This document shows, piece after piece, positions 33,825 to 50,999 of a stretch of DNA of 64,000 nucleotides. The notes beneath the pieces are model-generated. The model was not told the origin of the DNA. It worked only from the letters and a program-made list of their open reading frames with translations, and searched no databases. The DNA is from Halarcobacter sp. GTDB taxonomy: Bacteria > Campylobacterota > Campylobacteria > Campylobacterales > Arcobacteraceae. Numbering within the stretch: the stretch's first letter is position 1; each line of letters opens with the position of its first letter. A program made the position numbers and the translations under genes. Location: positions 1,760,001 to 1,824,000 of the forward strand of contig CP182352.1 of the NCBI GenBank assembly GCA_048571215.1. The letters are read 5' to 3'.

Positions 33825-35360
33825 CTAAAAATCTAAGGGGTATTCTTTTGGGATTAAGATATTTATATTATTTATTGCTTTTTTTACTTTTGAAAGTAGT
33901 ATTGTGTTTCCAAACATATCTCCACAAAGTATTAAATCTTTTGCTTTTAATTCTGAGTTTATTTTTTCAACATTGTCTTTTATAAAATCACTTAGGCTTT
34001 CATAAAAAGAGTATGCTAACATACTATCTTGAACTCCTGCCATTTTATAACTCATAGTACTTTGAATAACTCTTCTATAATCTAAATAGTTTTTCCCATC
34101 AATTTTTACTATATTCATATCTATTTGAATACCACTTTTAGAATTATATGCTAAAGCTATATCTTCAAACTCTTTATAGTCTCTCATTCCTAAGATATAT
34201 GCTAAAAGATTTAAAATAGACTCAAAGCCATCTGAATCAGTATCTTTAAACTCTTTTTCAAAATAAGTAGCATATTTATTTTTATAATTATCTACTAATC
34301 TTAGAGTATTTTCATCTAAACTTTTTATATCTTCAAAACAATTTTCAATACTATTAAACACATTTGGTATGTGTATTACATCTTTTATTCCTACTCCTGG
34401 CAGATTAATTTTAATAGCGGACTCATCACTTTTGTAGGAAAAATATATCCCGATAGTTGGAACTAATTTTTTATAAAATTGATCAATACATGCCTTATAT
34501 ACACTGCCATATTCATCAAAATAATCTTTTATATTAATAACTTTTCTATCTAATTTATACTCATACTTAGGGAAAAGTCCCTTTTCACCATGGATAATAA
34601 TAGTTTGTCCCTCACTATATGTTACTTTTAATCCATCTTGATAAATATCATCTGCTGTGTATAAAATATAAGAAAATCCCTCTTTTTTTAGTGCATTCGC
34701 AAAAAGTAAAGTTTCTCTATCATCTGGTACTTTTGCATAAATAAATCTAGTCTTAGAAAATTCTGTATCTGAGTTTTGAAGTAATTTAAATTTTAACTTT
34801 ACAAGGGGTCTTTCTATTGAACATAATAATTGCAAATCTTTTTGTGAGATTTCTACCAAATCAGTTATATTATTTATATCTGTAATCAATAGCTTAACTT
34901 CATATCCCTTTTCTTCAAACTCTTCTCTTAATTTAGTAGATGGTAAAAAGAAATCTTTTACTCCATTATGGGTATCTATCCTTGATATCTTTCCTTTTTT
35001 TATAAGTTCAATATCATTAAAAAAATCTACATTGTTTTCTTCTATTGTTTTTGTTATCTCATCATTTGTTAAAAGTGCTAAATTAACTTTTACATCTTTG
35101 TCTTCTATCTCTTTAAAGGCATCAAAATCAAACTTTTCTATAACTTCTGCCTTCCCTAAAAAGATTGATAAGGGTAGTTTTTGTTCTAAAAGTTTAAACA
35201 AACTCTCAATTTTTTCTTCTACATCATCACAAACAATTAAAATCAAATCCTCATAAAACTTTGTATGTGCCTTGGTTCCTGATTTAGTAATTATCTCATC
35301 AATTATATGTTTATAATAAAAATTTGTAGAAAAGAATTCTATTTTATAAATCAATTCCAT
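33825..35360 (-). CDS. hydE: HydE-like hydrogenase accessory protein (Campylobacterota type, HypF-related C-terminus)
   Basis: LCSIERPLVKL, QSTMSYKMAGV, ILCGDMF; ~510 aa directly after hydD as in Helicobacter/Wolinella hyd operons. Confidence 0.7.
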   Translation of the reverse strand: MELIYKIEFFSTNFYYKHIIDEIITKSGTKAHTKFYEDLILIVCDDVEEKIESLFKLLEQKLPLSIFLGKAEVIEKFDFDAFKEIEDKDVKVNLALLTNDEITKTIEENNVDFFNDIELIKKGKISRIDTHNGVKDFFLPSTKLREEFEEKGYEVKLLITDINNITDLVEISQKDLQLLCSIERPLVKLKFKLLQNSDTEFSKTRFIYAKVPDDRETLLFANALKKEGFSYILYTADDIYQDGLKVTYSEGQTIIIHGEKGLFPKYEYKLDRKVINIKDYFDEYGSVYKACIDQFYKKLVPTIGIYFSYKSDESAIKINLPGVGIKDVIHIPNVFNSIENCFEDIKSLDENTLRLVDNYKNKYATYFEKEFKDTDSDGFESILNLLAYILGMRDYKEFEDIALAYNSKSGIQIDMNIVKIDGKNYLDYRRVIQSTMSYKMAGVQDSMLAYSFYESLSDFIKDNVEKINSELKAKDLILCGDMFGNTILLSKVKKAINNINILIPKEYPLDF

Positions 35361-35926
35361 GTGGTATCTTCCTCATTTGGGATTCTTGTTAAATGCTCTC
35401 CATTATAACTTCCAATTAACTCTTGGGCTATAGTTTTCACACTTTTATTATCTTTTTTTATTGCTTTAACTCCAATAGCTTCAATCTCTTTAATTGCTTG
35501 AAGTGTAAACTCTTCAAATCTATCCTCAATAGTTTTTGTAAGCCCAATCTCAACACTTACAATATCTTCTGGGATAATACCTAAAATAGTCACTTCTGCA
35601 TGTTTGTCTAAAACTGAGCATATCTCTAACATCTCTACAATCTCAACCTCATGGGCTGTTTTTCTATATTGTCCAAGTCCAAGTAAAACCTCTGAAGGCA
35701 ATCTAAAGATCTCCCCTACTCTATCTTCAATCGATACAGTATCTAGAATAATAACGTTGTCATACTCTTGAAAAAGTGCCATTAGTTTAAAGCCTAGTGT
35801 TCCACCTTCAATTATCTCTAAATCTCCATCAAACTCATAATTGTTTTCTAAATATTTAGCTGCATAAATACCTACACCCTCATCTTTAAATAAAACATTA
35901 CCAACACCAATTACAATATTTTTCAT
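35351..35926 (-). CDS. hydD: Hydrogenase maturation protease (second copy)
   Basis: GVGNVLFKDEGVG, EGGTLG, TAHEVE. Confidence 0.9.
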   Translation of the reverse strand: MKNIVIGVGNVLFKDEGVGIYAAKYLENNYEFDGDLEIIEGGTLGFKLMALFQEYDNVIILDTVSIEDRVGEIFRLPSEVLLGLGQYRKTAHEVEIVEMLEICSVLDKHAEVTILGIIPEDIVSVEIGLTKTIEDRFEEFTLQAIKEIEAIGVKAIKKDNKSVKTIAQELIGSYNGEHLTRIPNEEDTTWN

Positions 35927-35994
35927 ATAATACCTTCAAATTAAAAACTTATTAAAATCAAATAAATTAACTTAAATAAATTTTTAGGGAAAAA

Positions 35995-36026
35995 AATAGG
36001 CTATGGCATTTTAGCCATAGCCTATT
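35995..36026 (-). terminator. Hairpin after the second cytochrome b gene
   Basis: AATAGGCTATGGC-ATTTTA-GCCATAGCCTATT perfect 13-bp stem with a U-tract on the minus strand. Confidence 0.75.
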
Positions 36027-36050
36027 AATTATATATTAAAAGAGTTTAGT

Positions 36051-36761
36051 CTACTCTTCTATTTTTGATTTTTTGTGGGCAAATTTAGTTCCACCAAATA
36101 CAATATTGATATCACCCTCTCTCCAAAAAATAGTTCTCCAAATTTGATAATAAATATGAGACATAACCCACATAATAAGCAAATACATTGCTGTATGATG
36201 AGCAATTCTAACACCCATATTACCACCAAATAATAGATTTGTCCAATCAGTTGTTAGGTGTAAAAGTGAAGGCCACCAAGAACCTATAGAACTCATACCT
36301 GATGCTAATCCCTGAACATACATTTGTAGCCCTGTAAATAGCATAAATACTAATAGAATATGAAATAGTGTAAAAAACATAATGTTATAACTATCACTAT
36401 ATGTTGAATCAAATTTCTTTCTTCTATTAAATGTTATAAGATTAAAGAACACTTCACAAAACTCAATGAAGTTTTTCTTAGTTGGTAAAATTTTCTTATA
36501 TGGTTTTTCAAATCTTGAAAAAAGATATAAGTAACCAATTAAGATTGCTGTAACATCAAAGATAATTGCAACAATAAAATGTCCCCATCTATTCCATGCC
36601 ATCACATATTTATCAACAGCAGGCTCTGCAATAAGTGTTTGATAATACGGATGACCTATATATAGCCCGGTTATGACTGCTGCAACCATACAAATCGCAT
36701 TCACCCAGTGAATGGTTCGCATGATTGGAGTCATTCTCTCAACCCGCTTCATATTAGGCAC
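36051..36761 (-). CDS. [NiFe]-hydrogenase cytochrome b subunit (second copy)
   Basis: RTIHW, RWGHF, RIAHH, SHIYYQ heme-ligand histidines; follows the large subunit. Confidence 0.88.
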   Translation of the reverse strand: MPNMKRVERMTPIMRTIHWVNAICMVAAVITGLYIGHPYYQTLIAEPAVDKYVMAWNRWGHFIVAIIFDVTAILIGYLYLFSRFEKPYKKILPTKKNFIEFCEVFFNLITFNRRKKFDSTYSDSYNIMFFTLFHILLVFMLFTGLQMYVQGLASGMSSIGSWWPSLLHLTTDWTNLLFGGNMGVRIAHHTAMYLLIMWVMSHIYYQIWRTIFWREGDINIVFGGTKFAHKKSKIEE

Positions 36762-38490
36762 GGCATCCTCCTACTGGATCTACTTTATATACTGCCAATT
36801 CTTTACCTTTTGTATCTATAATGTGAACTGCACAAGCGATACAAGGGTCAAAACTGTGCACTGTTTTAATAATCTCTAATGGTTGATCAGGATCAACAAC
36901 TTTAGTACCAACTAAAGATGCTTCATAAGCTCCCATTCTACCTTTATAATCTTTTGGTGCTGCATTCCAAGTTGATGGAACTACCGCTTGATAATTTACT
37001 ACCTTACCATCTTTGATTTTAACCCAATGACCTAAACTACCTCTTGGTGCTTCTGCCATTCCATAACCTTGTGCATCTTTTGCAACTTTGTCAAAATCAA
37101 ACTCAGTCCAAGTAGATAAGTCACCAGCTGCTGCATTTGCTGCAAGTTCATTACACCAGTCAATTACAACATCACACATCATCTCTGTTTCTATTGCACG
37201 TGCCGCTGTTCTTCCAACTGTTGAAAATAAAACTTTTGTTGGTAAGTTTCCATTTTTTAGGAAAGTTGTAACATATTTAGAGATTCTCTCATCACCTCTT
37301 GCTACACCAACAATCATCCTTGCAAGTGGTCCAACTTCTATTCTTTTGTCATCATATAATGGTGATTTAATCCAAGAGTATTTTTTCTCAGTATCTAAAT
37401 ATGCAATACCATCTTTTTTCTCTTTGAACCCAGTATATTTTGGATTTGTTTTTCCATCAAATGGGTGAAGATTTTCATTTCCTTCATACCAAGAGTGTGT
37501 TACATCTTCAGTAATTTTTGTTTGGTCTAAATCAAAAACTTTTGATAAATCTTTATTTAAAACTATACCACTTGGGAAAAGTTTTTTTGCTTCATAAAAT
37601 GGTGTGTCATCAAGATTAAAATCACCATAACACATATAGTTTCCTAAACCACCACCAACACCTTCAAGTGCTTCATCTGCATACATTGTACCTGCCATAT
37701 AAACATCTGGTAAATATGCTTGTTTAACAAATTTTTGAGCTTTTTGAATAATATCTTTAAACTCAGCAACTCTTACAGGGTTTTTAATATCTTGAACACA
37801 AGTTACCCCACCAACAACTATTGATTGTGGATGTGGGTTTTTACCACCAAAAATTGCTTGAGCTTTTGCAATATCTCTTTGTAAATCTAAAGCATCTAAA
37901 TAATGAGAAAGACCTATTAAATTTTGTTCAGGAGTTAATTTATAAGCTTTACTTCCCCAGTAAGCATTTCCAAATATACCAAGTCTACCTTGTTTTACAT
38001 ATTTAGTAACTCTTGCTTGAACCTCTGCAAAAACATCTTCACTAGCATTCCAAGGTCTTTGACCTGAAACTTTTGCCCACTTTTGAGCTTCTGCAACAGC
38101 AGCTTTTGGATCAGCTTCAAGTGCTTTTGTAATATCAACCCAATCTAAAGCGTGTAGATGATAGAAGTGAACAATATGGTCATGGATATATAAACCACCT
38201 TGCATTAGGTTTCTAACAAGTCTTGCATTCTTTGGAATAGTTACACCAAAAGCATGTTCAACAGCTTCTATACTTCTTTGATAATGTGTACCTGTACAAA
38301 CTCCACAAATTCTCATAGCTAAAAGACCACAATCTCTTGGGTCTCTACCTTTTAAAATCTCTTCAATCCCTCTAAACATAGTTGAAGAACTGTAAGCTTC
38401 TTTGATAACATTGTTATCATCTATTACAGCTTCAATTCTAAGGTGACCTTCAATCCTTGTTATTGGATCTATTACTACATGTTTACTCAT
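36754..38490 (-). CDS. Group 1 [NiFe]-hydrogenase large subunit (second copy)
   Basis: DPITRIEGHLR, MRICGVC, DPCIACAVH plus extension. Confidence 0.95.
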   Translation of the reverse strand: MSKHVVIDPITRIEGHLRIEAVIDDNNVIKEAYSSSTMFRGIEEILKGRDPRDCGLLAMRICGVCTGTHYQRSIEAVEHAFGVTIPKNARLVRNLMQGGLYIHDHIVHFYHLHALDWVDITKALEADPKAAVAEAQKWAKVSGQRPWNASEDVFAEVQARVTKYVKQGRLGIFGNAYWGSKAYKLTPEQNLIGLSHYLDALDLQRDIAKAQAIFGGKNPHPQSIVVGGVTCVQDIKNPVRVAEFKDIIQKAQKFVKQAYLPDVYMAGTMYADEALEGVGGGLGNYMCYGDFNLDDTPFYEAKKLFPSGIVLNKDLSKVFDLDQTKITEDVTHSWYEGNENLHPFDGKTNPKYTGFKEKKDGIAYLDTEKKYSWIKSPLYDDKRIEVGPLARMIVGVARGDERISKYVTTFLKNGNLPTKVLFSTVGRTAARAIETEMMCDVVIDWCNELAANAAAGDLSTWTEFDFDKVAKDAQGYGMAEAPRGSLGHWVKIKDGKVVNYQAVVPSTWNAAPKDYKGRMGAYEASLVGTKVVDPDQPLEIIKTVHSFDPCIACAVHIIDTKGKELAVYKVDPVGGCRA

Positions 38491-39731
38491 TATTCTTCTC
38501 CATCTTCTTTATGTACTGTTCTTTTTCCTGCTACTGCTGAAGCTACTGCATGAACTCCAATACCAATTGTAGTTGCGGTTAATAATCCTAAACCAAACTC
38601 ATCAACAGTTTTTTCAACTCCACCTGTTGGTGCTTTGATATTCGCATCTGCCATTGGTCTTTCATAAGCATATTTATCCCAGAAATCTGGTTCAGAACAT
38701 CCAATACAACCTCGACCTACACCAATTGGCCAGTTTGCACCTTCGTTATATCTAATAATAGAACAGTTATTAAATGTCATAGGACCTTTACAACCCATTT
38801 TATATAAACAGAAGTTGTTTTTAGCACCTTCATCACCCCATTCTTCAACAAATTCACCTGCATCAAAATGAGCTCTTCTTTCACAGTTATCATGAATTCT
38901 ATAACCAAAAGCAAATTTTGGTCTTAATAATGAATCAAGCTCAGGAATTTGACCTGTTAATATAAATTGTAAAACTACACCAACCATATTAGCTGGATTT
39001 GCAGGACAGGCAGGGATATTAATAACAGGTTTACCTTTTACTAAATCCATAACACCAACTGCACCTGTAGGGTTTGGAGCTGCTGCTGGAACACCACCAA
39101 AAGTAGCACATGCACCAACTGCTATAACAGCTGCTGCATCAGAAGATAATCTCATTAGGTGTTCTTGGAAAGTTTCACCACTTGCACCAATTGTTCCATA
39201 TTGACCATTCATTCCTGTTGGAATTGAACCCTCAACAAATAGTAAATATTTACCTTTGAAATGCTCTACTGCATCTTCTAATTGAGCATCAGCTTGATGA
39301 CCAGAAGCTGCCATAAGAGTTTCATGGAACTCTAATGATAATACATCAAAAAGTAAATCATCAACTGTAGGAGCTGAACTTCTAAGTAATGCTTCTGAGT
39401 TACCAGCACAGTCTTGTAACTCAATCCAGATTACTGGAACTCTATTCATAAGTTCCGTAGCTTCAGCCACCAATGGAGTAAACATAGGAGGTAACATCAA
39501 TGTAGCAGTTGTAGCACTTGCCCATTTCATGAAATCTCTTCTGTTTACACCTTCACTCTCAATAACATCAATCATATCAATGTCTTTAAGTGCTGGTTGT
39601 TTTCTTAATGCCTCTAATCTACCTTTTGCTTTATTAAAAAGCGAATTATAATAAGCATCACCTTTATTCGTTTCAACTCTTGCAGAATTCTGGGTAAAAA
39701 CTTTTTTTACCATGTCTTGAGAATCAGCCAT
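38490..39731 (-). CDS. Group 1 [NiFe]-hydrogenase small subunit (second copy, Tat-exported)
   Basis: NRRDFMK, DCAGN, ACPA, CLYKMGCKGP; start MADSQ at 39731 preferred because of the AAGGGG RBS and an operator overlapping the longer start. Confidence 0.93.
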   Translation of the reverse strand: MADSQDMVKKVFTQNSARVETNKGDAYYNSLFNKAKGRLEALRKQPALKDIDMIDVIESEGVNRRDFMKWASATTATLMLPPMFTPLVAEATELMNRVPVIWIELQDCAGNSEALLRSSAPTVDDLLFDVLSLEFHETLMAASGHQADAQLEDAVEHFKGKYLLFVEGSIPTGMNGQYGTIGASGETFQEHLMRLSSDAAAVIAVGACATFGGVPAAAPNPTGAVGVMDLVKGKPVINIPACPANPANMVGVVLQFILTGQIPELDSLLRPKFAFGYRIHDNCERRAHFDAGEFVEEWGDEGAKNNFCLYKMGCKGPMTFNNCSIIRYNEGANWPIGVGRGCIGCSEPDFWDKYAYERPMADANIKAPTGGVEKTVDEFGLGLLTATTIGIGVHAVASAVAGKRTVHKEDGEE

Positions 39732-39751
39732 AAACTTCCCCTTTAGTTTTT

Positions 39752-39878
39752 TAAATGAATATTCATTTATCATCAGTATAAAGTTAGCTATTTTAAACTT
39801 AATATTATCTTAGAAAAAATACCCAAAATAGGAGCTTTAGTAGCAATAAAATAGCATGGCTAAAATGAACATTCATTT
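39752..39878. promoter_or_regulatory. Two palindromic operators upstream of the second hydrogenase operon
   Basis: TAAATGAATATTCATTTA (39752-39769, perfect) and AAATGAACATTCATTT (39863-39878). Confidence 0.7.
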
Positions 39879-39982
39879 ATATAAGCTTTAGTAACCACTT
39901 AGTACTAAAAATACATAAGTAATTTAATATTTAAAAAAAAATTGATTTTTTATTAAAATGTAACTTTTTAACTCAAATTATA

Positions 39983-41341
39983 TTAATGTGTAGTACATAC
40001 AGAACATACATCAAAACTTCTTAATATGATTTTTGCTTTTTCTATAGAATCAGTACCTACAATAGCCTTTTGGGTAGTACCTAAAGTATTATTATCACCT
40101 GGACCTAGGTTCCATACAGTGGGAGTTATGACATTGTACTCTTCTATTTTTCCATTTCTAATAGTAGCCTCATGAAATAATGAACCTCTACAAGCTTCAA
40201 CTACACTTAATGCTGATGAGTGTTCTAAATCATCCAATTTTATCTGTGGTTTTATATAAGATTCTTCATTTATATCTATTTTGGAGATAAGCTCTTTTGT
40301 ACTATATAAAAGGTGTGCTAGTTCATCCATTCTAGCTAATACTCTTGTAAATAGTGAATCTTCATATATGCTGTGTACATCTTTTAAAAGTTTTCTATTT
40401 GAAATAAGTGCTCTTGATAAGGGACCTGTTTCATAAAATAGATTATCATACTTAACAGTTTTTGCCCAACCATAAGCTTTTGGGTTTTCTTCATCTTTAT
40501 CTAAACTATAAGCAAAACTATCATCTTCATATATCTTTTTTAAATCTATTTTATGGCTAACTCTTTTATTTAATCTTCCTTTTTCAAAAAGAGCTGATTC
40601 ACCTAAACTAAGATGTCTATCGTAACTTTTTCCAATATTTTCAAAATCATTTTCAAAAGATATATCTATAAACTCTTTTAGATGTCCTCCAATTTTTGAT
40701 AACTCATAGGTTTTAGATAAGTCAAGATACTTTTCAAACTCCATATTTATTAAACTTTTTTCAAAAAACCTTATGCTTGAATCTAAATAGTTTTTCATTG
40801 TAGCTATATCCATAAGTGTTGGATCACTTACTACCCCTCCAGGTATCATATATGAAGTGTGTGGCCATTGACCACCTATAATCGCTAAAGCTTTTATTGT
40901 TTCACTTGCACACCCAAGTGCTTCTAACCAGTTTTTCCCTTTTAATGGTGTATATTCATTGAATTTTTTAGACGAAAGCTTTATTATATCAGGCATAATA
41001 AACATATAAAACCATTTTATATGAGAATCGATAATTTCAATATTTAAACCTATTTCCCTTAAAAGTTTTGCCTTTTGTGTCACTTGTAAATCAACGCCAG
41101 CGTTTTTATATAGATTTTCTAATAAATTAACAGTTGCAAGAAGATGTGCTTGTCCACAAATTCCACAAATTCTTGGGGTATAAACCAAGGCATCCAAAAT
41201 AGGTTTATTTTTTAAAATATATTCAAATCCTCTAAAGTTTAAAAACTCTATTCGTGCATCACTAATTTTTTCATTTTCCCAAGAACAAACAAGTTTTGCT
41301 TCACCTTCTATTCTTTCTACTAAATCTATTGTTTTCATCAT
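39983..41341 (-). CDS. Cytoplasmic group 2-type [NiFe]-hydrogenase large subunit
   Basis: ERIEGEA, PRICGICGQAH, ends FDVCSVCTTH with no C-terminal extension. Confidence 0.9.
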   Translation of the reverse strand: MMKTIDLVERIEGEAKLVCSWENEKISDARIEFLNFRGFEYILKNKPILDALVYTPRICGICGQAHLLATVNLLENLYKNAGVDLQVTQKAKLLREIGLNIEIIDSHIKWFYMFIMPDIIKLSSKKFNEYTPLKGKNWLEALGCASETIKALAIIGGQWPHTSYMIPGGVVSDPTLMDIATMKNYLDSSIRFFEKSLINMEFEKYLDLSKTYELSKIGGHLKEFIDISFENDFENIGKSYDRHLSLGESALFEKGRLNKRVSHKIDLKKIYEDDSFAYSLDKDEENPKAYGWAKTVKYDNLFYETGPLSRALISNRKLLKDVHSIYEDSLFTRVLARMDELAHLLYSTKELISKIDINEESYIKPQIKLDDLEHSSALSVVEACRGSLFHEATIRNGKIEEYNVITPTVWNLGPGDNNTLGTTQKAIVGTDSIEKAKIILRSFDVCSVCTTH

Positions 41342-41606: not shown

Positions 41607-41888
41607 CTAATCATGAGCTTGTTGTCTGTGTTTAAAATCAACAACAGCTACAATAAGCTTATTACCCTCAATAAGATAAAAAAGTCTATAATTTCCAATT
41701 CTATATCTATAATAGCCTTCAAGATTATCTTTTAACTTTTTAATATTTGTTCCATAAAAAGGGTTTTCTCTAAGTTGAGGATAAACAAAGTTTTCAATTT
41801 TTGAATAAAGCTTTTTATCTATCTTTTTTTTAACTTTTTCAAAAGTTTTAGTTTCTGCAATTTGATACTTAGACAATTGTATAGTCAC
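41607..41888 (-). CDS. RelE/ParE-family toxin
   Basis: 93 aa, basic; IKKLK...YRYRIGNYRLFY. Confidence 0.9.
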   Translation of the reverse strand: MTIQLSKYQIAETKTFEKVKKKIDKKLYSKIENFVYPQLRENPFYGTNIKKLKDNLEGYYRYRIGNYRLFYLIEGNKLIVAVVDFKHRQQAHD

Positions 41889-42105
41889 CTTTTTTGAAAT
41901 CTTCTAGTCCATCCATAAGGTTTTTTACAAGCTCTTTATCATTCATAATTTCAGCCATTTCATCATTTTCTACAAATTGTGAAGATGTCAAGTATTGCAT
42001 TGTTGCAAACTCTATGAAATTTGAAAGATTTCTTTTTTGACCTTCAGCTGCAAGTTTTATCATATCGTAAACTGAATCATCTACTCTCATAGTTACTGTT
42101 TTCAT
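41869..42105 (-). CDS. RHH-type antitoxin
   Basis: MKTVTMRVDD ribbon-helix-helix N-terminus, acidic C-terminus, overlaps the toxin start. Confidence 0.85.
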   Translation of the reverse strand: MKTVTMRVDDSVYDMIKLAAEGQKRNLSNFIEFATMQYLTSSQFVENDEMAEIMNDKELVKNLMDGLEDFKKGDYTIV

Positions 42106-42176
42106 AATATATCCTTTGAATATTTATTAATACTATTGTATTCAATTTTATTCATTTTGTCAATTGAAGATGTTTC

Positions 42177-42247
42177 ATATAACGGTTGACTTGAGAAATA
42201 TTTGACCCGCACTTGGGTCAAATATTCGCTCCAGCATTTTGTTATCT
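42177..42247 (-). mobile_element. Integron attC site (71 bp)
   Basis: Minus strand AGATAAC...CTGGAG-CG-AATATTTGACCC-loop-GGGTCAAATATT-T-CTCAAG...GTTATAT; upstream gene stop lies in the TAAC. Confidence 0.85.
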
Positions 42248-42544
42248 AATAATATATTTGATGTGCGTACCAATTTTATTATTTTTAATAATATCTATAA
42301 ATTGTTTTATCGAAACTTCTTGTTCAGATTTTATATAATCTCCACTCCATATTGAAGTAAATGTTATTCCATTTTTTGAATAATTGAAAATTTTATTTAA
42401 TTCATTAGATATATGAGCCAACTTACTTTTTTCAAAAATCCAAAATTCATCATTCCAATCAGCTTCATCTGAAAGAAAATCATGTAAATTAATATGCATC
42501 TTTTCGTAAGTATCCATTAAAATAATTTCAGTAATTAAACTCAT
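42242..42544 (-). CDS. Hypothetical protein (gene cassette)
   Basis: 100-aa ORF with AAGGA RBS, bounded by attC sites. Confidence 0.7.
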   Translation of the reverse strand: MSLITEIILMDTYEKMHINLHDFLSDEADWNDEFWIFEKSKLAHISNELNKIFNYSKNGITFTSIWSGDYIKSEQEVSIKQFIDIIKNNKIGTHIKYIIR

Positions 42545-42560
42545 GGTAATTTTTCCTTTT

Positions 42561-42614
42561 AAATAACCTTTGACTTCAGTGACGCTCTGTGTTCACTGCG
42601 AGGATTTGTTATGA
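42561..42614 (-). mobile_element. Integron attC site (short, 54 bp)
   Basis: Minus strand TCATAAC-AAATC-CTCGCAGTG...CACTGAAG-TCAAAG-GTTATTT; the upstream ORF reads into it (HNKSSQ*). Confidence 0.75.
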
Positions 42615-43435
42615 GATTTTTTAATTTCATCCATTGTTTTAAATATTGATTTTACCCAATGGAAATCTGCATCCCACGAACCAGAGGGTGAAATAAGTAC
42701 ACCTAAAGGACCATCATGATTTAAATAATCTAAGACTTCAGAGTATTTTAAATCAATTATAATATTCCCACACATGCCAGGACTAACTTCATATTCACTA
42801 AATAGAAATTCTATGCTTTCATTTTTAATGAAAAACCTAGGTATAAAACTAGGTTCGTCAAATCTACTAAAAAAGTCACAATCATTTTTATTTTTAATAA
42901 TATTTTTCACTTCTTCAAGTGCATTACGTTTAGCATCAAAAACATCAAAAAAATCAAAATAATTGTTAGTCTTTGGGTTGATGTTAATTGACCATACCGA
43001 ATTATTTCCATTTAGTGCAGGATAATGGAAAGTATACTGAGTCATTTTTATAGATAATAAATTTGGGGAAATAATTCCTTTTTCATAATTAGAATTGTAA
43101 ATTATAAGGTCTTCAGTTATTGACTGAAGGACATTTTCTTTTATTTCATTATTAATATAATCCAAGAATTTATTGGAAAAAAATGGATAAATAATTTGAG
43201 GATAAAAGATATTATCTATTTCTCTATCATGTCCAGCATATTTTATGTCTTTAAATGTATAAGGATAATCTATTTTCTTTACTTCCAAGGAGTTGAAAAC
43301 ATAATCTTCAATAATAGTGCTTATCTTTAATGTTGCAAACGAAGTTAATGGAATTATTATTGCAAGAACTAAACCAATATAACTTGCTTTACTTGGTATA
43401 GACCATTTTGACCACTGCCGTATACTTGGAATCAT
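42593..43435 (-). CDS. DUF3298/RsiV-like membrane-anchored protein (gene cassette)
   Basis: N-terminal TM, YPQI, LLSIK, FLFSEYEVSP. Confidence 0.7.
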   Translation of the reverse strand: MIPSIRQWSKWSIPSKASYIGLVLAIIIPLTSFATLKISTIIEDYVFNSLEVKKIDYPYTFKDIKYAGHDREIDNIFYPQIIYPFFSNKFLDYINNEIKENVLQSITEDLIIYNSNYEKGIISPNLLSIKMTQYTFHYPALNGNNSVWSININPKTNNYFDFFDVFDAKRNALEEVKNIIKNKNDCDFFSRFDEPSFIPRFFIKNESIEFLFSEYEVSPGMCGNIIIDLKYSEVLDYLNHDGPLGVLISPSGSWDADFHWVKSIFKTMDEIKKSHNKSSQ

Positions 43436-43465: not shown

Positions 43466-43495
43466 TCATAACTATTTATTCAACATACATTATAT
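43466..43495 (-). mobile_element. attI-like site 1
   Basis: Minus strand ...TTGAATAAATA-GTTATGA; core is the exact complement of R'' (TCATAAC) of the first cassette; TAACTATTTATT recurs at 47048 and 49964. Confidence 0.75.
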
Positions 43496-43763
43496 ATAAA
43501 ACACCCTAAAAATTAATAAATAACATACACAAAACATGTCGTATATTAAGACAACAAGAATTACCTAAAATAGAGAGTTCTTACGTATTTCAGTATAAAA
43601 AATATTGCAATATGTCATATTTTTTAAATTTATTTTAAGTTTTTAATATAGTTTTTATGTTCATTTATTATCGATATTTAGATGATAATAGTACATTGTG
43701 TATGTATATTATGTCAATATCGTGATAAACCTACATTATGTTAAATTTATTGAGAGGTATATT

Positions 43764-43805
43764 ATGGATAAAAAACTATTAGATATTATGAGAGATAAAT
43801 TCTAA
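43764..43805 (+). pseudogene. intI: Integron integrase N-terminal stub (MDKKLLDIMRDKF*)
   Basis: GAGAGG RBS; divergent from attI at the normal intI position; resembles the KLLD..RDKIR start of IntI proteins. Confidence 0.65.
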
Positions 43806-43810
43806 ATATT

Positions 43811-44706
43811 CACTTTTTTATTGAAAAAAGTAAAATAAAAACAACCCACAGATTTCGAAGGTGAAACTTCCCTCGCTTATTATTTCACTTTTCTGTTTTT
43901 CAAAACTCGCTCTTGTGCTTGCACTCTCTGTGAGAAAACGTAAGTTAGTTACGTTTTTTTACGCTCTAACAGTTGAAAAACTTTTCCGAAAAGCAAAATA
44001 AACACTCGGCTTCTCAAATGCGGGAAGGTGGGATAAGGACCTTTGCATTTTTTATACCATTTTATTTAAGCTGGTGTGATACTCAATTACTAAGAGAAAG
44101 TTCGAGGCTAGAGTATTTGTCCAGACTTTGTTGAAGCCGGAAGTTTTCTAATTATTTTCGGAGAAGACCGAGGACCGTTCAACTGGATAAAAGGTACTGA
44201 ATGTACCTTTTAGGAAAGCGTTCCGCAGGTCAGGAAATAATTATAAAACTGTAGGGAACTTTAGCTTCGACAACCGTCTGGTGGCTTTTGTTTTACTTTT
44301 ACCACTAAAAGTAAAGAAAGCGAAGAACTTGTTCTTCAAGACAATTGCATACAATAAAAACTATTTTCAAAATATTTGAGTGTGATTAAATTTTTACTGT
44401 ACGTCTTAACTTATTCCGACTTTCTTTTATGAAAAAGAAAGTAGCAAAGAAACCATCCTACAGGTTTCGAAAGTGAAACTTCCCTCGCTTATTACTTATC
44501 CTTTTTGAGTGACTAAAAACTTGCTCTTGTGCTTGCACTCTCTGTGAGAAAACGTGAGTTAGTCACGTTTTTTTACGCTTCAAACAGTTTAGTCACTTGT
44601 TTTCAAAAGAGATAAATAAACACTCGGCTTCTCAAATGCGGGAAGATGGGAAACTGACCTTTGCATTTTTTAATACCATTTTATTTTAGTTGGTGTAATA
44701 CTCAAC
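43811..44706. repeat. Structured non-coding repeat array 1 (A1-B1-A2)
   Basis: A1 43811-44087, B1 ~44096-44344, A2 44419-44706; GTGAAACTTCCCTCG recurs at 43861 and 44473. Confidence 0.9.
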
Positions 44707-44752
44707 AATTATTATAAAAGTGGAGATTCATCCTCTAGGGTGTTATTTCGAA

Positions 44753-45430
44753 TTATTCTATATTTAGTAATGGATTTTCTTTATTGTTTTTTGTTAAATT
44801 TTCTAAAAGAGCATTTTTCTCATCTTTTTTTTCTTGATAATCTTTTTGTAATTCTTTATAATTATTTAATGTTTCTTCAGTCTCTTCTCTATCTAAGTAT
44901 GAAGGTAAGTTTAGTAACATCTCTGTATATGTTTCTATTATATTTTCGAGAAATTTTTCTATATCTAAGTTTTTATAATCATCATTACTAAGAGATGTAT
45001 AATTCCCTTGGGCTTCATCCACCGATATAGTTGGCCAAGGAAACTGTCTATTTCCTGCTTCATATTCAATGTTATGTTTGATTTCATCAAAGTAAAGGCC
45101 TGGATACTCTTTTGTTTTCATCGTTTCAAATAAAGTTTTATTAAAATCATCATCATTGCTGAAATTTGTAACTTGCAATAATGCACTTCCAAAAGAAATT
45201 CTCTGATCTCCATTTTTTGATTCTTCTAAATAACTATTCTCTTCGAGCTTTTTTCTTAATTCTTTTGCTTCTTCATAACTTAAATCTTTTAATTCAGATT
45301 CATCTATAAATACATTTAAATTACCTTCTTTATTAATTATATTTTCAAATAGATCATTTACTTTGGCAGAGCTTTCTGATTTCAAGTCACTCTGATAATT
45401 CGGGGATACCTGTGTTGTATTAATTACCAT
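44753..45430 (-). CDS. Hypothetical protein (gene cassette), paralogue of 25501-26253
   Basis: 225-aa ORF, AAGGAG RBS directly after the GTTATCC cassette start. Confidence 0.75.
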   Translation of the reverse strand: MVINTTQVSPNYQSDLKSESSAKVNDLFENIINKEGNLNVFIDESELKDLSYEEAKELRKKLEENSYLEESKNGDQRISFGSALLQVTNFSNDDDFNKTLFETMKTKEYPGLYFDEIKHNIEYEAGNRQFPWPTISVDEAQGNYTSLSNDDYKNLDIEKFLENIIETYTEMLLNLPSYLDREETEETLNNYKELQKDYQEKKDEKNALLENLTKNNKENPLLNIE

Positions 45431-45448
45431 TTTATTTACTCCTTATAT

Positions 45449-45583
45449 GGATAACGTTTGAACTTGAAAAACAAGGGTACAATAGCACTTGATTATTTCA
45501 ATTTTCATTTTAGCTTTTTTGTTCTAAAAAACTTAAATAAACCACTGTATACCCTTGTTTTTATTTCCAAAGTTTTATTAGAG
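45449..45583 (-). mobile_element. Integron attC site (135 bp) with mutated R'' box
   Basis: AAAAACAAGGGTA/TACCCTTGTTTTT 13-bp stem; R' GTTATCC; R'' reads CTCTAAT instead of CTCTAAC. Confidence 0.75.
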
Positions 45584-45588
45584 GTTCT

Positions 45589-46269
45589 TTAAAGTTTAAT
45601 TGCTTTTGTAATAGCAAAATTATACATTCTCCAATAACAAGCACTTTGTTGAAATCCAACTTCTTTTAACCAATCAAAATGATTTGATAAAATAATTGGA
45701 AAATCTTTTTCAATATGTTTTTCATACCAAAACTCTGGGTTTTCACCTTGCTCTTTCATAAACTGTTTCCAAAGAGAATATTGATGTTCTCTAACATCTT
45801 TATCTTCATCTATGATAATATCATTTGAGATATAAACTGCATTTTGATTTGCACTATTAAAAAGTTTTTGATAAAAAACTTTTCTCTCTTCCCAATTTAG
45901 ATGATGTAGTGTCATACCTGTTAAAATTATATCATATGATTTTCCAATTGAATCTATTTTATAATCCCCTTGAATTAATTCATAGTTATTTGTATATTTT
46001 GATATTTTTTGTTCGTAAGCATCTAGCATTTCAGTAGTAATATCAAATCCAGTGATATGTGAATTTGGAAGTTTCTTTAAAACAATTTCAGATAATACAC
46101 CATTACCACAACCTAAATCCAATATTCTATAGTTTTTATTTTTATCACTTGGTAATAAATCAGATATGATTTTATGTTGTTCCAAATATTGTGGAACCAA
46201 TCTAGTCATCAATGCTTCATAATCAGAAGCTTGTTTTGCGAAATGTTCTTGTACATTTATATCTTTCAT
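45589..46269 (-). CDS. Class I SAM-dependent methyltransferase (gene cassette)
   Basis: ILDLGCGNG, GFDITTEML, MTLHHL. Confidence 0.9.
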   Translation of the reverse strand: MKDINVQEHFAKQASDYEALMTRLVPQYLEQHKIISDLLPSDKNKNYRILDLGCGNGVLSEIVLKKLPNSHITGFDITTEMLDAYEQKISKYTNNYELIQGDYKIDSIGKSYDIILTGMTLHHLNWEERKVFYQKLFNSANQNAVYISNDIIIDEDKDVREHQYSLWKQFMKEQGENPEFWYEKHIEKDFPIILSNHFDWLKEVGFQQSACYWRMYNFAITKAIKL

Positions 46270-46275
46270 TTTATC

Positions 46276-46344
46276 CTCTAACGTTTAAAATGAGCCGATG
46301 AATTGCCTGTAGGGTAATTTATTAGCTCTCCTGATTTGTTATAT
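46276..46344 (-). mobile_element. Integron attC site (69 bp)
   Basis: Minus strand ATATAAC-AAATC-AGGAGAGC...GCTCATT-TTAAAC-GTTAGAG with an imperfect central stem. Confidence 0.8.
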
Positions 46345-46353
46345 TTATCATGT

Positions 46354-47028
46354 CTAATAGACCTCCATATATATAACTTTTAATTTTTGTATCAACCCTT
46401 TTTTGTTAAATTTAATCTCAATTTTACCATTGGCATTATAGTAGTAATATTTACAGTTAATAGGCTCCTTATTACGTATATCTTGCTGAAGCATTATTTT
46501 TAGTTGTTTATTTGGTAATTTCAATCTTTTTTCGTAAAGATATTCTTGTTTCGCATCTGTTGCTAATGTAGGGTTCTGTAAATATTTTGATATTTGTTGT
46601 CTATTCATTCCAACTGCTAGACCAGATTTTGTACTGATACCTTGATATAGTTTATCGGTTTCTATGCAATGAGTTTGATTAATTTCTTGAGAATCGTCTG
46701 TAATTGAAAATCCATAGTAGTCCCAACCAGCATATTTATAATAAATTACTCCTACGCTTCTGTCTCTTGAAATATAACATGCTTCTTCATCACAAGAAGC
46801 ACATCCAGGTTTTCGCTTAAACGAATTGATCTCACCATAATATTTTTTTAAATCTTCAAAACTATGCTTGCCTATTGTTAGTCCAAGTAAAGTTTTATGT
46901 GATTCGTCCATTGTCATGCCAGAGACTTTGTTATCAACTTCAAGAACAGAAGGTGACAACTGACACAACTCATCATTTGCATAAACATTGACAAATATCA
47001 GTAAGCTCAATGTTAATAAAAGTCTCAT
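46354..47028 (-). CDS. Hypothetical exported protein (gene cassette)
   Basis: Signal peptide ending VYA, several cysteines, GGAG RBS. Confidence 0.75.
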   Translation of the reverse strand: MRLLLTLSLLIFVNVYANDELCQLSPSVLEVDNKVSGMTMDESHKTLLGLTIGKHSFEDLKKYYGEINSFKRKPGCASCDEEACYISRDRSVGVIYYKYAGWDYYGFSITDDSQEINQTHCIETDKLYQGISTKSGLAVGMNRQQISKYLQNPTLATDAKQEYLYEKRLKLPNKQLKIMLQQDIRNKEPINCKYYYYNANGKIEIKFNKKGLIQKLKVIYMEVY

Positions 47029-47044
47029 TATCTAGTCTCCATTA

Positions 47045-47075
47045 ATATAACTATTTATTGAATATACATTATATA
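47045..47075 (-). mobile_element. attI-like site 2
   Basis: Minus strand ...TTCAATAAATA-GTTATAT; core is the exact complement of R'' (ATATAAC) at 46338-46344. Confidence 0.75.
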
Positions 47076-47208
47076 AATAAAGTACTTAAATACACTAATT
47101 TATTATATATTTGCAAAGAAAGGTTGTTTTATGCATGTTTATAGAAAAGATATTACATAATGTCAAAATCTAATTTTAAAGTACATTTTTTATAATTTAG
47201 AAATAGTT

Positions 47209-47250
47209 GTAGATAAAAAACTATTTGATATTATCTGAAATAAATTTTAA
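47209..47250 (+). pseudogene. intI: Second, more decayed intI stub
   Basis: GTAGATAAAAAACTATTTGATATTATCTGAAATAAATTTTAA aligns without gaps to 43764-43805; start lost, internal TGA. Confidence 0.55.
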
Positions 47251-47255
47251 ATATT

Positions 47256-48183
47256 CACTTTTTTATTAAAAAAAGTAAAATAAAAATAACCCGCGGGTTT
47301 CGAAGGTGAAACTACCCTCGCTTATTATTTATTGTTTCTGTTTTGTAAAACTCACATAAAAATATGCTCCTAGCATATTTGTTCTGTTCAAACAGTTACA
47401 AAACTATTTCGAAACAATAAATAAACACTCGGCTTCTCAAATGCAGGAAAGTGGGAAACTGACCTTTACATTTTTTTAGTACCATTTTTTTTGAATTGGT
47501 GTAATACTCAATTTATACAAAGAAAGTTTGTGGCTAGTGTATTTAGTCCAGACTTTGTTGAAGCCGGAAGTTTTCTAATTATTTTCGGAGAAGACCGAGG
47601 ACCGTTCAACTGGATAAAAGGTACTGAATGTACCTTTTAGGAAGGCGTTCCGCAGGTCAGAAGATAATTAGAAAACTGTAGGGGACTTTAGCTTCAACAA
47701 CGTGTCTGGTTGCTTTTTGCCATACTTTTTACAATTAAAAAGTATGAAAGCGGAGAGCTTTGCTCTACAAGACAACTGCATACAATAAAAACTATTATCA
47801 AAATATTTGAGTGTAAATAAACTTTTGCTGTACCTCTTGGCTTTCTCAACTTTCTTTTGTAAAAAAGAAAGTAGCAAAGAAATTATCCCGCAGGTTTCGA
47901 AGGTGAAACTTCCCTCATTTATTATTTATTGTTTCTGTTTTGTAAAACTCACATAAAAATATGCTCCTAGCATATTTGTTCTGTTCAAACAGTTACAAAA
48001 CTTTTCCGAAACAATAAATAAACACTCGGCTTCTCAAATGCGGGAAGGTGGGATAAGGACCTTTGCATTTTTTAGTACCATTTTATTTGTATTGGTGAGA
48101 TACTCAATATATATTTTGAAAGTTCAAGGCTAGAGCATTTCAGTCCAGACTTTGTTGAAGCCGGAAGTTTTCTAATTATTTTC
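47256..48183. repeat. Structured non-coding repeat array 2 (A3-B2-A4-partial B3)
   Basis: A3 47256-47511, B2 ~47522-47775, A4 47849-48107, B3 48118-48183 truncated; B core near-identical to B1. Confidence 0.9.
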
Positions 48184-48232: not shown

Positions 48233-48688
48233 CTATACTAAAAGCTCAAGAAATAGAGTATTTAATTGATTCTTATCTTTTTTGTTTAATTTTGAGAAAA
48301 ATAAATTATCAATATCTTCTACAATTTTTACAGACTTTATTGCTAATTCTATTCCACTATGTGTTAATGTTATCGTTTTAGCTCTAGTATCTATTTCATT
48401 TTCACTTCTTAATATAAAACCATTTTTTTCTAAAATTTTTAAACTTTTGGATACTGTCATTTTATCCAGTTTAGTATGTTCAATTATTGTTGTTTGAGTT
48501 GTAATGATTTCTTGTTCTTTAAACCAAAGCAAAGAAGCCAAGATAACAAATCCAGAGTGATTTAAATTAACTCCATCCAATGCAGTTTTTATTTCTCTTT
48601 GCCAAAGTGTTGTCACTTGCCATAATAAAAAACCAGAACTTTGTTCTGCTTTTTTAACTTGAAAATTACTTTCTTTTTTCATTTTCAA
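48233..48688 (-). CDS. MarR-family transcriptional regulator
   Basis: SSGFLLWQVT.LWQR, DKMTVSK.LK.LE..G.I.R, DTRAK. Confidence 0.9.
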   Translation of the reverse strand: MKMKKESNFQVKKAEQSSGFLLWQVTTLWQREIKTALDGVNLNHSGFVILASLLWFKEQEIITTQTTIIEHTKLDKMTVSKSLKILEKNGFILRSENEIDTRAKTITLTHSGIELAIKSVKIVEDIDNLFFSKLNKKDKNQLNTLFLELLV

Positions 48689-49097
48689 TTAACCGTATTA
48701 ATCTATCCATATCTTCACCTAACTTATCTGCAACTTCTTGAGCAACTATCTTTTTCCATAAAAAAGATAAAATTCCTTCTATTTTTATGCTTGCTTTAAT
48801 CTCAATTTTACCATTTTTTTCTGTAATTTCATGAATACCGTACATTTTGGCTAATGGGAACTTTGTTAAATCTGTAAAACTTTTATCTTTTTCAATTTTA
48901 ATAAGTTGAATTTTAACTTTTTGTCCACCTTTTAATCCTAAAGTAAAAAAATTACCCTCTTTAAATTCTCCATCAAGTTTTGCGTAATCAATATCATCAT
49001 TAAAAGTATGCCAATTATTTATATCTGCCCATTTGTTAAAAATCTCCTCTTTTGAAATATTTTCAACTATTCTTGAATCTGTTCCAACTAATTGCAT
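48666..49097 (-). CDS. SRPBCC/polyketide cyclase-like protein
   Basis: IFNKWADINNWHTFNDDI, SFTDLTKFPLAKM. Confidence 0.8.
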   Translation of the reverse strand: MQLVGTDSRIVENISKEEIFNKWADINNWHTFNDDIDYAKLDGEFKEGNFFTLGLKGGQKVKIQLIKIEKDKSFTDLTKFPLAKMYGIHEITEKNGKIEIKASIKIEGILSFLWKKIVAQEVADKLGEDMDRLIRLIENEKRK

Positions 49098-49995: not shown

Positions 49996-50092
49996 TAAAA
50001 ACTTGCTCTTGTGCTTGTAGACAAAAAAGTTAGAAAGCATACCCACGTTCAGTGGGTGTAAAAAAGCGAAGAACATTAGTTCTTAAAGACAA
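49996..50092. repeat. Eroded fragments of the A/B structured repeat
   Basis: TAAAAACTTGCTCTTGTGCTTG matches A2; AAAGCGAAGAAC..GTTCTT.AAGACAA matches the end of B1. Confidence 0.7.
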
Positions 50093-50102
50093 AATGTATA
50101 CC

Positions 50103-50999
50103 TCAATCAATCAACTTCCTATGAAGTCTATCTATTTTAAAAGTTTTAGCAATACCTGTCAGTGATAGATATGCTCTTTTTGTTATACCTAAGGGAACTT
50201 CAGCGGGGATTCCTATGTTTTTCTTAGTTTCAAGCATATTTTCCCTTGGAAAATCAAACTCAGTACACCCAATACATGGCATACCAGCTCTAGTTTTTGT
50301 ATTTACATCATTCCATAAAACTTTATTACAATTTGAGTGGGTCATAGGTCCACGACATCCTTGTTCATAAAAAAGACAGCCCTCTTTTAATCCAAAGCTT
50401 TTTGCTTCTACCTTCCATTCAAAGTACTCATTTCTTGTACAACCATGGTGGGCCAAACCATAATATAATTCAACTGGTCTTCCATATTCATCGAGAGTTA
50501 TCTTTCCATACTCTTTTAAGCTAAATAGAGTTTGAAAAATCCATTCTGGATGGACTGGGCAACCTGTAAGGTTTATTATTGGATGATTTAATCCATACAT
50601 ATTATCTATCTCTAAAGATTTTTCAAGCCCATCTATGTCACTATTGAAAGTAAATCTACTGTGAACTCCACCATATGAAGCACACGAACCAACGGCTATA
50701 ATATATTTTGATTTTTTTACAAGTTTATTAAACTGTATATATGGAGATTGATTTGATATTTTAAAAAAGTTTTCATTTGAACTTATTGCACCCTCGACAA
50801 GTAAAAAGTCAATTTCAACTTCACTATTTAAAATATCATCTAAAATAATCCCTTCAGTTAAGGAAGGGTGATATATAAGATCAAAACTATCTAAAAATAG
50901 TTTCATCCTATTTTGATTTGCACTTAAAAAAGAGTGGGTATTTCCATTACAAGTTATAGCTTGAAACCATAAAAGCTTTGGTTTTCCACTAGTTGTCAT
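50103..50999 (-). CDS. Cytoplasmic group 2-type [NiFe]-hydrogenase small subunit
   Basis: No Tat signal; LLWFQAITCNGN, GSCASYGG, GCPVHP, GCTRNEYF, GCRGP, CIGC. Confidence 0.9.
   Translation of the reverse strand: MTTSGKPKLLWFQAITCNGNTHSFLSANQNRMKLFLDSFDLIYHPSLTEGIILDDILNSEVEIDFLLVEGAISSNENFFKISNQSPYIQFNKLVKKSKYIIAVGSCASYGGVHSRFTFNSDIDGLEKSLEIDNMYGLNHPIINLTGCPVHPEWIFQTLFSLKEYGKITLDEYGRPVELYYGLAHHGCTRNEYFEWKVEAKSFGLKEGCLFYEQGCRGPMTHSNCNKVLWNDVNTKTRAGMPCIGCTEFDFPRENMLETKKNIGIPAEVPLGITKRAYLSLTGIAKTFKIDRLHRKLID

What the first reader, a model, noticed from the sequence alone, without database searches (positions are those of the whole stretch)
43811..48183. Arrays of ~250-bp covarying hairpin elements: two diverged subtypes of one fold, alternating on opposite strands
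Seen: four A units and three B units (one partial), arranged A-B-A and A-B-A-b, with periods of 612 and 597 bp and no credible ORF. Stems change sequence between copies but stay paired: GTTTTTCAA/TTGAAAAAC (A1), AGTGACTAAA/TTTAGTCACT (A2), GTTTTGTAA/TTACAAAAC (A3, A4); AAAACGTAA..TTACGTTTT versus AAAACGTGA..TCACGTTTT; terminal GAAGAAC/GTTCTTC versus AGAGC/GCTCT. The reverse complement of A has the same architecture as B: closing stem, GAAGCCG, long AT stem, TTTCGGA(A/G)AAG, apex, AGGGAA..TT..CTTC, closing stem, then a TACTTT..AAAGT hairpin. Inference: one structured element family (large ncRNA/ribozyme or ssDNA-folding mobile unit) propagated as inverted pairs, like an oversized BIME/REPIN. 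I cannot assign it to a named family.
Basis: partly seen in the sequence, partly recalled or inferred. Interest (0 to 1): 0.88.

Follow-up and report, generated by a model that had tools for sequence, protein, structure and literature searches.

The report
Rod-and-triplex repeats beside satellite integron sites
These are copies of an unnamed folded repeat found across many bacterial phyla, a long rod ending in a knot that holds a triple helix, and in this genome about fifteen spare integron gene-capture sites and two kinds of RNA-guided transposon have settled on them.

Summary
Confirmed and extended. A (minus strand) and B (plus strand) are two subtypes of one ~200-nt element: a model built from B alone finds all four A copies and 62 copies genome-wide. 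Relatives occur in Proteobacteria, Bacteroidota and other groups; close pairs are back-to-back in 14 of 16 cases. Each unit is a covarying rod plus an H-type pseudoknot whose linker follows the parallel triple-helix code: 52 of 52 asymmetric cases against 0 of 52 for ordinary pairing. No Rfam family, paper or linked mobilising enzyme was found. RNA versus single-stranded DNA is unresolved. All 7 IS110 copies sit inside it, with matching bridge-RNA guide loops. This scan noted this family, and two look-alike families, before on other DNA (e1-5231860; e1-7072290, e1-3566162); their summaries mention no attI or IS110 link.

The parts
43808..44025 (-). A1: rod plus 3' triple-helix pseudoknot (knot about 43808-43848); carries an optional 26-nt insert at 43910-43935
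   Evidence: CM 96.9 bits; knot read-out; insert
44059..44086 (-). sigma-70-like TTGAGT-16-TAAAAT upstream of A1 (again at 44678-44705 for A2); not kept in all copies
   Evidence: variation
44120..44337 (+). B1: rod, pseudoknot (about 44278-44317) and tail hairpin (44322-44337)
44417..44644 (-). A2, with the same optional insert (44524-44549); linker TTTCTTT against purine strand AAAGAAA
47253..47448 (-). A3
   Evidence: CM 100.7 bits
47547..47770 (+). B2: rod, pseudoknot and tail hairpin
   Evidence: CM 205.5 bits
47847..48045 (-). A4
   Evidence: CM 105.4 bits
48118..48183 (+). b3: 5' fragment of a B unit, fused to what looks like a truncated attC of the next cassette
   Evidence: attC reading by eye
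43470..43805 (-). satellite attI (GTT at 43472-43470), Pc-like -10 box (43489-43494), intI promoter region and a 13-codon intI stub on the + strand (43764-43805) that runs into A1
   Evidence: 87% over 330 nt to the intI-attI region at C1:896166-896495; matrix score 37.0
47049..47250 (-). second satellite attI (GTT at 47051-47049), of a different allele, with a degenerate intI stub (47209-47250)
   Evidence: matrix score 38.2; same allele stands before intact intI in two relatives
46354..47028 (-). cassette gene, 224 aa, no Pfam family; cassette start and end boxes are complementary; attC at 46276-46344
45589..46269 (-). methyltransferase cassette; attC at 45449-45583; a 95% identical copy lies in the array of an intact intI in G002
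   Evidence: attC by eye
44753..45430 (-). cassette gene, 225 aa, no Pfam family, followed by a separate 29-nt mini-repeat (44718-44746)
41607..43435 (-). cassettes behind the first attI: 280-aa DUF3298-like gene (attC 42561-42615), 100-aa gene (attC 42176-42248), RelE/ParE toxin-antitoxin pair
48233..49097 (-). two-gene cassette (143-aa protein plus MarR regulator), attC-flanked in G002
   Evidence: L228
41345..50100 (.). whole accessory island between hydrogenase large- and small-subunit genes, which lie about 20 nt apart in G006 and G016; a B-tail remnant sits near 50005-50090

Best explanation
SHOWN: A and B are subfamilies of one interspersed repeat that folds on one strand into a rod with conserved internal loops, then an H-type pseudoknot whose first loop lies in the major groove of the second stem as about 4-9 parallel Y.R-Y base triples, then a tail hairpin. 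The usual unit is a back-to-back pair of two different subtypes with the knots outermost. In this lineage the repeats adjoin spare attI/Pc sites with cassettes and are the targets of an IS110 clade. INFERRED (about 45%): it is a non-autonomous mobile repeat that acts as folded single-stranded DNA, REPIN-like, copied by an enzyme supplied in trans (HUH type most likely) that docks on the knot; only copies that fold are copied, which explains covariation among paralogues. INFERRED (about 65%): the satellite integron modules (A, intI stub, attI, cassettes) spread by homologous recombination between repeat copies and are loaded by the single distant IntI.
For: Structure: 93.6% of cells paired, 37 of 54 pairs with double changes, 0 of 500 shuffles, slid controls at most 53% (24 copies). 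Triplex: A opposite T 511 of 519, G opposite C 66 of 70 in register against 1-8 of 70 off register; C position matches G position 79 of 81, permutation maximum 49; parallel 52 of 52, antiparallel 0 of 52; own-genome A copies 20 of 21. DNA-type loops: 95 of 137 apices are GC-GNA-GC and all 95 two-base gaps end in A; outside the apex, GNA triloops 45 on the folded strand against 4 on the other, GNRA 9, UNCG 0; that GNA triloops are extra-stable in DNA is recalled. No strand bias to host genes (15 and 15 co-oriented cases among 48 loci). Patchy, 0-62 copies, 16 of 41 family genomes. IS110 members are known to target REPs (PMC12288879, passages). attI link.
Against: No enzyme tracks the element: Y1 in 8 of 16 positive and 9 of 25 negative genomes; RT 2 of 16 and 4 of 25; the 54 of 115 flanking ORFs scanned were mostly housekeeping genes, with one rve transposase; no recurring family among 773 ORFs. 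No clean filled/empty pair gave element ends. The knot geometry (one G bridging a 5-bp covarying extension) and the larger strand asymmetry under RNA parameters fit RNA better. Arcobacteraceae apices mostly lack GNA loops. The 137 wide matches include many close relatives, and the search pattern fixed part of the apex and the last three T of the linker.
Confidence: 0.45

Rival explanations
1. A multicopy structured non-coding RNA: each unit is transcribed (divergently from the spacer or by read-through), the rod is a protein scaffold or decoy and the triple-helix pseudoknot protects the 3' end or docks a protein; copies spread by recombination or gene conversion.
For: [quoted passage not shown] One G bridges a 5-bp extension whose pairs hold in 99-102 of 103 sequences, an A-form-type crossing (geometry recalled). 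Folded strand wins 58 of 61 and 132 of 137 with RNA energies. Pairs are 5'-to-5' in 14 of 16. Promoter-like boxes precede A1 and A2. Optional inserts fall in loops and junctions.
Against: GNA triloops dominate and UNCG is absent. The -10 box is broken in several A copies and no shared promoter motif was seen by eye in spacers of other genera. No strand bias to host genes. DNA energies also favour the same strand (53 of 61, 131 of 137).
Confidence: 0.38
2. A domesticated chromosomal DNA site (binding or pausing site for a host protein such as a topoisomerase, recombinase or nucleoid protein) kept for host benefit, spreading only by recombination.
For: Chromosomes and chromids hold it, phages almost never (no match; 3 viral contigs). 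Copies sit inside operons. Some loci are shared between species and genera.
Against: Absent from 25 of 41 family genomes searched, including complete ones; copy number runs from 1 to 62; stems swap sequence freely, which a duplex-reading protein would not allow.
Confidence: 0.1
3. The units are parts of the integron or IS110 systems themselves: giant attC-like sites, or orphan bridge RNAs / IS110-derived MITEs.
For: Close physical link to attI, cassettes and IS110 in this family.
Against: No copy within 1.5 kb of the intI-family loci examined (17 loci); intact intI in 7 of 25 genus genomes while 23 of 24 relatives match the repeat (a few only through a mini-insert). IS110 carries its own 267-nt left end with guides that match the repeat, so the repeat is the target; genomes with 39 and 37 copies have no IS110 hit. 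Loops are conserved, not variable like guides.
Confidence: 0.07

Closest known systems
REPINs / BIMEs with RAYT (PMC3116915, passages read)
   Same: Extragenic, multicopy, inverted doublets, tandem clusters of doublets, no coding capacity, target of IS110 members.
   Different: Units about 200-250 nt instead of short REPs; the two halves are different subtypes that each fold alone; triple-helix pseudoknot; no RAYT beside any copy and no Y1 co-occurrence.
Triple-helix H-type pseudoknots such as the telomerase RNA core (PMC7583470, passages read); TnpB omega-RNA (PMC10097598, search listing only)
   Same: Pyrimidine loop 1 in the major groove of a purine-rich stem, U.A-U and C.G-C code.
   Different: Longer run of triples, carried by a dispersed bacterial repeat with no partner gene; molecule type unproven.
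CALIN elements (PMC4889954, passages read)
   Same: attC clusters far from intI, in a genome that encodes IntI elsewhere.
   Different: Each array keeps an attI, a Pc-like box and an intI stub cut at the same base, about 15 per genome, each welded to a repeat unit.
IMU and MITE-flanked class 1 integrons (PMC3575428, passages read)
   Same: A non-coding element of about 300 nt next to a defective integron.
   Different: IMU/MITE copies are identical and move by transposase, with target duplications; here copies are diverged, structure-conserved and show no terminal repeat or duplication.
IS110 elements targeting REP (ISPpu9; PMC12288879, passages read)
   Same: IS110 inserted at a fixed position of a multicopy palindromic repeat, guided by a bridge RNA.
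   Different: One clade with near-identical donor ends has been retargeted to at least five positions, on both strands, of one repeat family.

Membership tests
REPIN/RAYT | Extragenic inverted doublets over-represented | tested here: met
   14 of 16 close pairs divergent, none convergent, in 80 loci; pairs in four other family genomes (one convergent pair there)
REPIN/RAYT | RAYT gene flanked by the repeat, and co-occurring with it | tested here: not met
   (no copy at the Y1 gene); 8 of 16 against 9 of 25; flanks of Y1 genes in relatives were not examined
REPIN/RAYT | Doublet of short near-identical REPs forming one hairpin together | tested here: not met
   A and B each fold alone and differ in their stems
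REPIN/RAYT | Mobilised through single-stranded DNA by an HUH enzyme | not testable with these tools
   needs biochemistry
Rfam RNA families (ribozymes, riboswitches, large ncRNAs) | Match at gathering score | tested here: not met
   window; 20 wide loci; 4 loci at E up to 1
Triple-helix H-type pseudoknot | Loop 1 parallel-complementary to the purine strand of stem 2 | tested here: met
Triple-helix H-type pseudoknot | Stem 1 between hairpin loop and upstream segment | tested here: met
   94% paired, 2 of 4 pairs with double changes; mean helix 3.69 against shuffled maximum 3.01
Triple-helix H-type pseudoknot | Formed by an expressed RNA | tested here: inconclusive
   only contigs of a related strain were available
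MITE / IMU | Terminal inverted repeats and target-site duplication | tested here: inconclusive
   none seen, but no close filled/empty pair was found
IS110 bridge RNA or IS110-derived MITE | Variable guide loops, IS110 ends, co-occurrence with the recombinase | tested here: not met
Retro-element (group II intron, retron, SINE-like) | Cognate reverse transcriptase | tested here: not met
   none in G000; 2 of 16 positive genomes
IS91/ISCR | Y2 transposase | tested here: inconclusive
   no hit in G000, but the control genomes gave none either
Integron attI and cassettes (flanking DNA) | Site homologous to the sequence before an intact intI, with cassettes starting at GTT and ending in attC | tested here: met
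Integron attI and cassettes (flanking DNA) | IntI recombines at the satellite sites | not testable with these tools
   different cassettes follow each site, which suggests but does not show activity

The most novel reading that the evidence does not exclude
A new class of bacterial mobile element, present across phyla, whose recognition end is a natural triple-helix pseudoknot and whose back-to-back pairs capture and shuttle accessory genes; in Arcobacteraceae it has turned one integron into a distributed network of about 15 expressed attI landing sites served by a single integrase.
Probability: 0.3. Interest if true: 0.92.

Novelty: new variant of a known kind. Interest (0 to 1): 0.78.

Why it matters
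Natural triple helices with many consecutive triples are few and mostly eukaryotic RNAs; here one is supported by in-register covariation in a repeat found in several bacterial phyla, up to 62 times per genome, with no family name. It can be tested at once with short oligonucleotides, as RNA and as DNA. The genome also shows an unusual integron layout, many attI/promoter platforms without integrase, which offers a route to the integrase-less cassette clusters whose origin is open (PMC4889954). The IS110 clade gives a natural series of bridge-RNA retargetings on one known target.

Tried and rejected
RNAalifold on a mixed A+B MAFFT alignment gave no pairs, so model R1 is sequence-only. One search mixed strands by my error and is not used. 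The structure string was off by one in its outer helices; one search replaces it. Expression: one metatranscriptome run with share 0.07, contigs of a related strain only, no evidence either way. Phage records: no match; plasmid hits of the window were only a 27-28-nt mini-insert. Group I/II intron, cobalamin riboswitch and 6S likenesses were considered from recall and dropped after the Rfam scans. Orphan bridge RNA: rejected. RAYT, RT and IS110 as mobilisers: no tracking. The 29-nt repeat after the last cassette first looked like half an attC belonging to A; it also occurs away from the element (5 of 12 hits lie over 700 nt from a unit). Replichore bias could not be judged (uneven skew). Attempts to fix element ends found swapped cargo, not clean empty sites. 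Paper searches without a description of the family: (30 of 47 listed); the library lacks most subscription journals and no supplements were read, so an unnamed motif in a supplementary table cannot be excluded.
Full report
Observation. The seven units are present as described, with spacings of 612 and 597 nt and no credible ORF inside them. Reverse-complemented A aligns with B. A covariance model built from 24 B-type copies recovers B2, B1, A4, A3, A1 and A2 at 205, 186, 105, 101, 97 and 44 bits, with a next-best 12.7 bits. Rfam has no match in the window.

Distribution. The window is G000:C1:1760001-1824000. Profile searches give 89 full or partial hits in 17 clusters and the model gives 62 matches. 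DNA search matched 23 of 24 same-genus genomes, a few only through a mini-insert. The sequence model matched 16 of 41 family genomes with 1-62 copies and gave strong hits only inside the family among 151 class genomes. The Arcobacteraceae-trained model gave 33 matches at E up to 0.1 over 47 of these and similar loci, up to 53 bits. Close pairs in the first 80 loci are divergent in 14 of 16 cases and never convergent. Four other family genomes show pairs of two different subtypes with spacers of about 70-100 nt, and one convergent pair. Single copies show no strand preference to neighbouring genes, and only 5 of 48 lie between divergent genes (gene calls by a rough composition score).

Fold. 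On 24 B-type copies, 54 pairs including the pseudoknot are 93.6% paired, 37 pairs show changes on both sides, no shuffle of 500 reaches this, and slid controls reach at most 53%. The structure was derived from these copies and they are related, so this overstates significance. After reading the title of note e1-5231860 I looked for a knot. The hairpin loop pairs with the segment just upstream (mean helix 3.69 against a shuffled mean of 2.66, maximum 3.01 of 1000, 90 unique of 124 parsed of 137). The pyrimidine linker between them copies the purine strand in parallel: T opposite A 511 of 519, C opposite G 66 of 70, against 1-8 of 70 off register. The C position follows the G position in 79 of 81 (permutation mean 35.6, maximum 49 of 5000). 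Where the purine run is asymmetric, the parallel reading fits 52 of 52 and the antiparallel reading 0 of 52. Own-genome A copies agree in 20 of 21. This is the Y.R-Y code of major-groove triple helices, commonly found in H-type pseudoknots (PMC7583470, passages). The pattern fixed the last three T of the linker but not the C.

RNA or DNA. For DNA: 95 of 137 apices are GC-GNA-GC (first G fixed by the pattern; all 95 end in A); outside the apex GNA triloops number 45 against 4 on the other strand, GNRA 9, UNCG 0; no strand bias to host genes. That GNA loops are extra-stable in DNA is recalled. For RNA: a single G bridges a basal extension whose three tested pairs hold in 99-102 of 103 sequences, which suits an A-form groove (recalled); pairs are 5'-to-5'; promoter-like boxes precede A1 and A2 (13 hits against 6.1 +/- 3.3) but are broken in other copies. 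Both energy sets prefer the same strand. I put folded DNA at 45% and RNA at 38%.

No mobiliser found. G000 has no RT and one Y1 transposase without a copy nearby. Across the 41 family genomes Y1 occurs in 8 of 16 positives and 9 of 25 negatives, RT in 2 and 4, IS110 in 7 and 3. Flanking genes in other phyla are mostly housekeeping (54 of 115 ORFs scanned; 773 ORFs clustered). Ends could not be fixed.

IS110 targets the repeat. All 7 IS110 copies in G000 (3 of 323 aa, 4 of 327 aa; family confirmed on two relatives' copies) lie inside units. Their 267-nt left ends contain segments that match the flanking target halves, read by eye. Of 17 IS110 loci examined in relatives, 3 could not be parsed; 9 lie in the repeat, 1 in what looks like another transposase gene in an element-negative genome, 1 at a different short repeat, and 3 are another type outside it. 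With G000 this gives at least five positions, on both strands, with matching guide changes. This parallels IS110 insertion into REPs (PMC12288879, passages).

Integron platforms. G000 has one intact intI at C1:895245-896189. Window 43470-43800 is 87% identical to its attI-promoter-5' region, with intI stopped after 13 codons where A1 begins. A matrix built only from 8 intI-linked sites finds 21 sites in G000: the primary one, 15 within 400 nt of a unit, and 5 others, two of them weak. They carry different alleles that match sites before intI in different relatives, and unrelated genes follow each. The stub joins A at the same base in 4 G000 copies and one G012 copy; other platforms join through the B-tail segment. 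The same link is seen in loci of G002, G010, G012, G017, G023, G195 and G213, while G098 loci showed none. No unit lies within 1.5 kb of the 17 intI-family loci examined. The window's methyltransferase cassette is 95% identical to one in G002's intact integron, and the MarR pair is attC-flanked there. The whole island sits between hydrogenase genes that lie about 20 nt apart in G006 and G016; G012 has only a repeat remnant, and G002 has other cassettes plus an A-B pair at that site. Inference: a pair arrived first, then modules of A, stub, attI and cassettes, flanked by direct repeats of A, were moved in by homologous recombination, as the run of modules at C1:1704-1722 kb suggests. Repeated site-specific insertion into intI is the alternative. 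In two 96%-identical genomes of another genus the gene beside the knot end differs, and Gallionellaceae pairs enclose single accessory genes, so cargo turnover at these sites may be general.

Comparison and verdict. It works like a REPIN/BIME but fails the RAYT and short-doublet tests (PMC3116915, passages). Its knot meets the sequence tests of a triple-helix pseudoknot. Its flanks are CALIN-like arrays that kept attI (PMC4889954, passages) and resemble IMU-flanked defective integrons only loosely (PMC3575428, passages). Ten paper searches found no description; no supplements were read. The scan has noted this family or look-alikes on other DNA; these are unchecked notes, not support. Verdict: real, unnamed, cross-phylum structured repeat; new variant of the non-autonomous interspersed repeat kind, with a 30% chance of being a new class; interest 0.78.

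Noticed in passing
window 43910-43935 and 44524-44549; L276, L282, L283: Optional 19-36-nt hairpin inserts occur at several positions in the units; in G000 the two tested types (7 and 6 hits) lie only in or at units, and one also matches Arcobacter and Sulfurovum plasmids over 27-28 nt. Possibly a second, smaller mobile repeat.
   Followed up: partly
window 44718-44746: A separate 29-nt repeat that often ends cassette arrays; 12 hits in G000, one 2.5 kb from the Y1 gene.
   Followed up: partly
L021:2748-2935: The first cassette at the primary attI has no ORF: about 30 nt followed by an unusually long hairpin attC.
   Followed up: no
G000:C1:2560378-2560911 and L039:1130-1190: The Y1 transposase has short GGGGACAG direct repeats upstream; the same repeats interrupt an A copy in G012, and one IS110 in G209 sits at such a repeat.
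   Followed up: no
L297:1200-1760: Paraburkholderia chromids carry 37-39 places with the knot; the one read has knots at both ends of a ~560-nt unit whose interior lacks the usual apex, so the knot may be a module shared by several repeat families.
   Followed up: partly
G000:C1:1938564, 1940120, 1697711: attI-like sites with no repeat unit nearby.
   Followed up: no
G000:C1:267634-267860 and 1715096-1715410: IS110 remnants: a left-end-like fragment after a truncated B unit and a C-terminal fragment next to an A unit.
   Followed up: partly
G000 genes behind satellite attI sites, e.g. C1:1713013, 1977361, 2745638, 634179: Several first cassettes look like anti-phage genes (TIR-, SIR2-, Mrr-, HNH-like); labels are by eye from N-termini, not scanned.
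   Followed up: no
L299:3253-18643: In G195 two repeat pairs bracket a 15-kb island that is replaced by two attC cassettes in G213.
   Followed up: partly
window 33825-41341 and 50103-50999: Two NiFe hydrogenase gene sets in a row; the island splits the small- and large-subunit genes of the second.
   Followed up: partly
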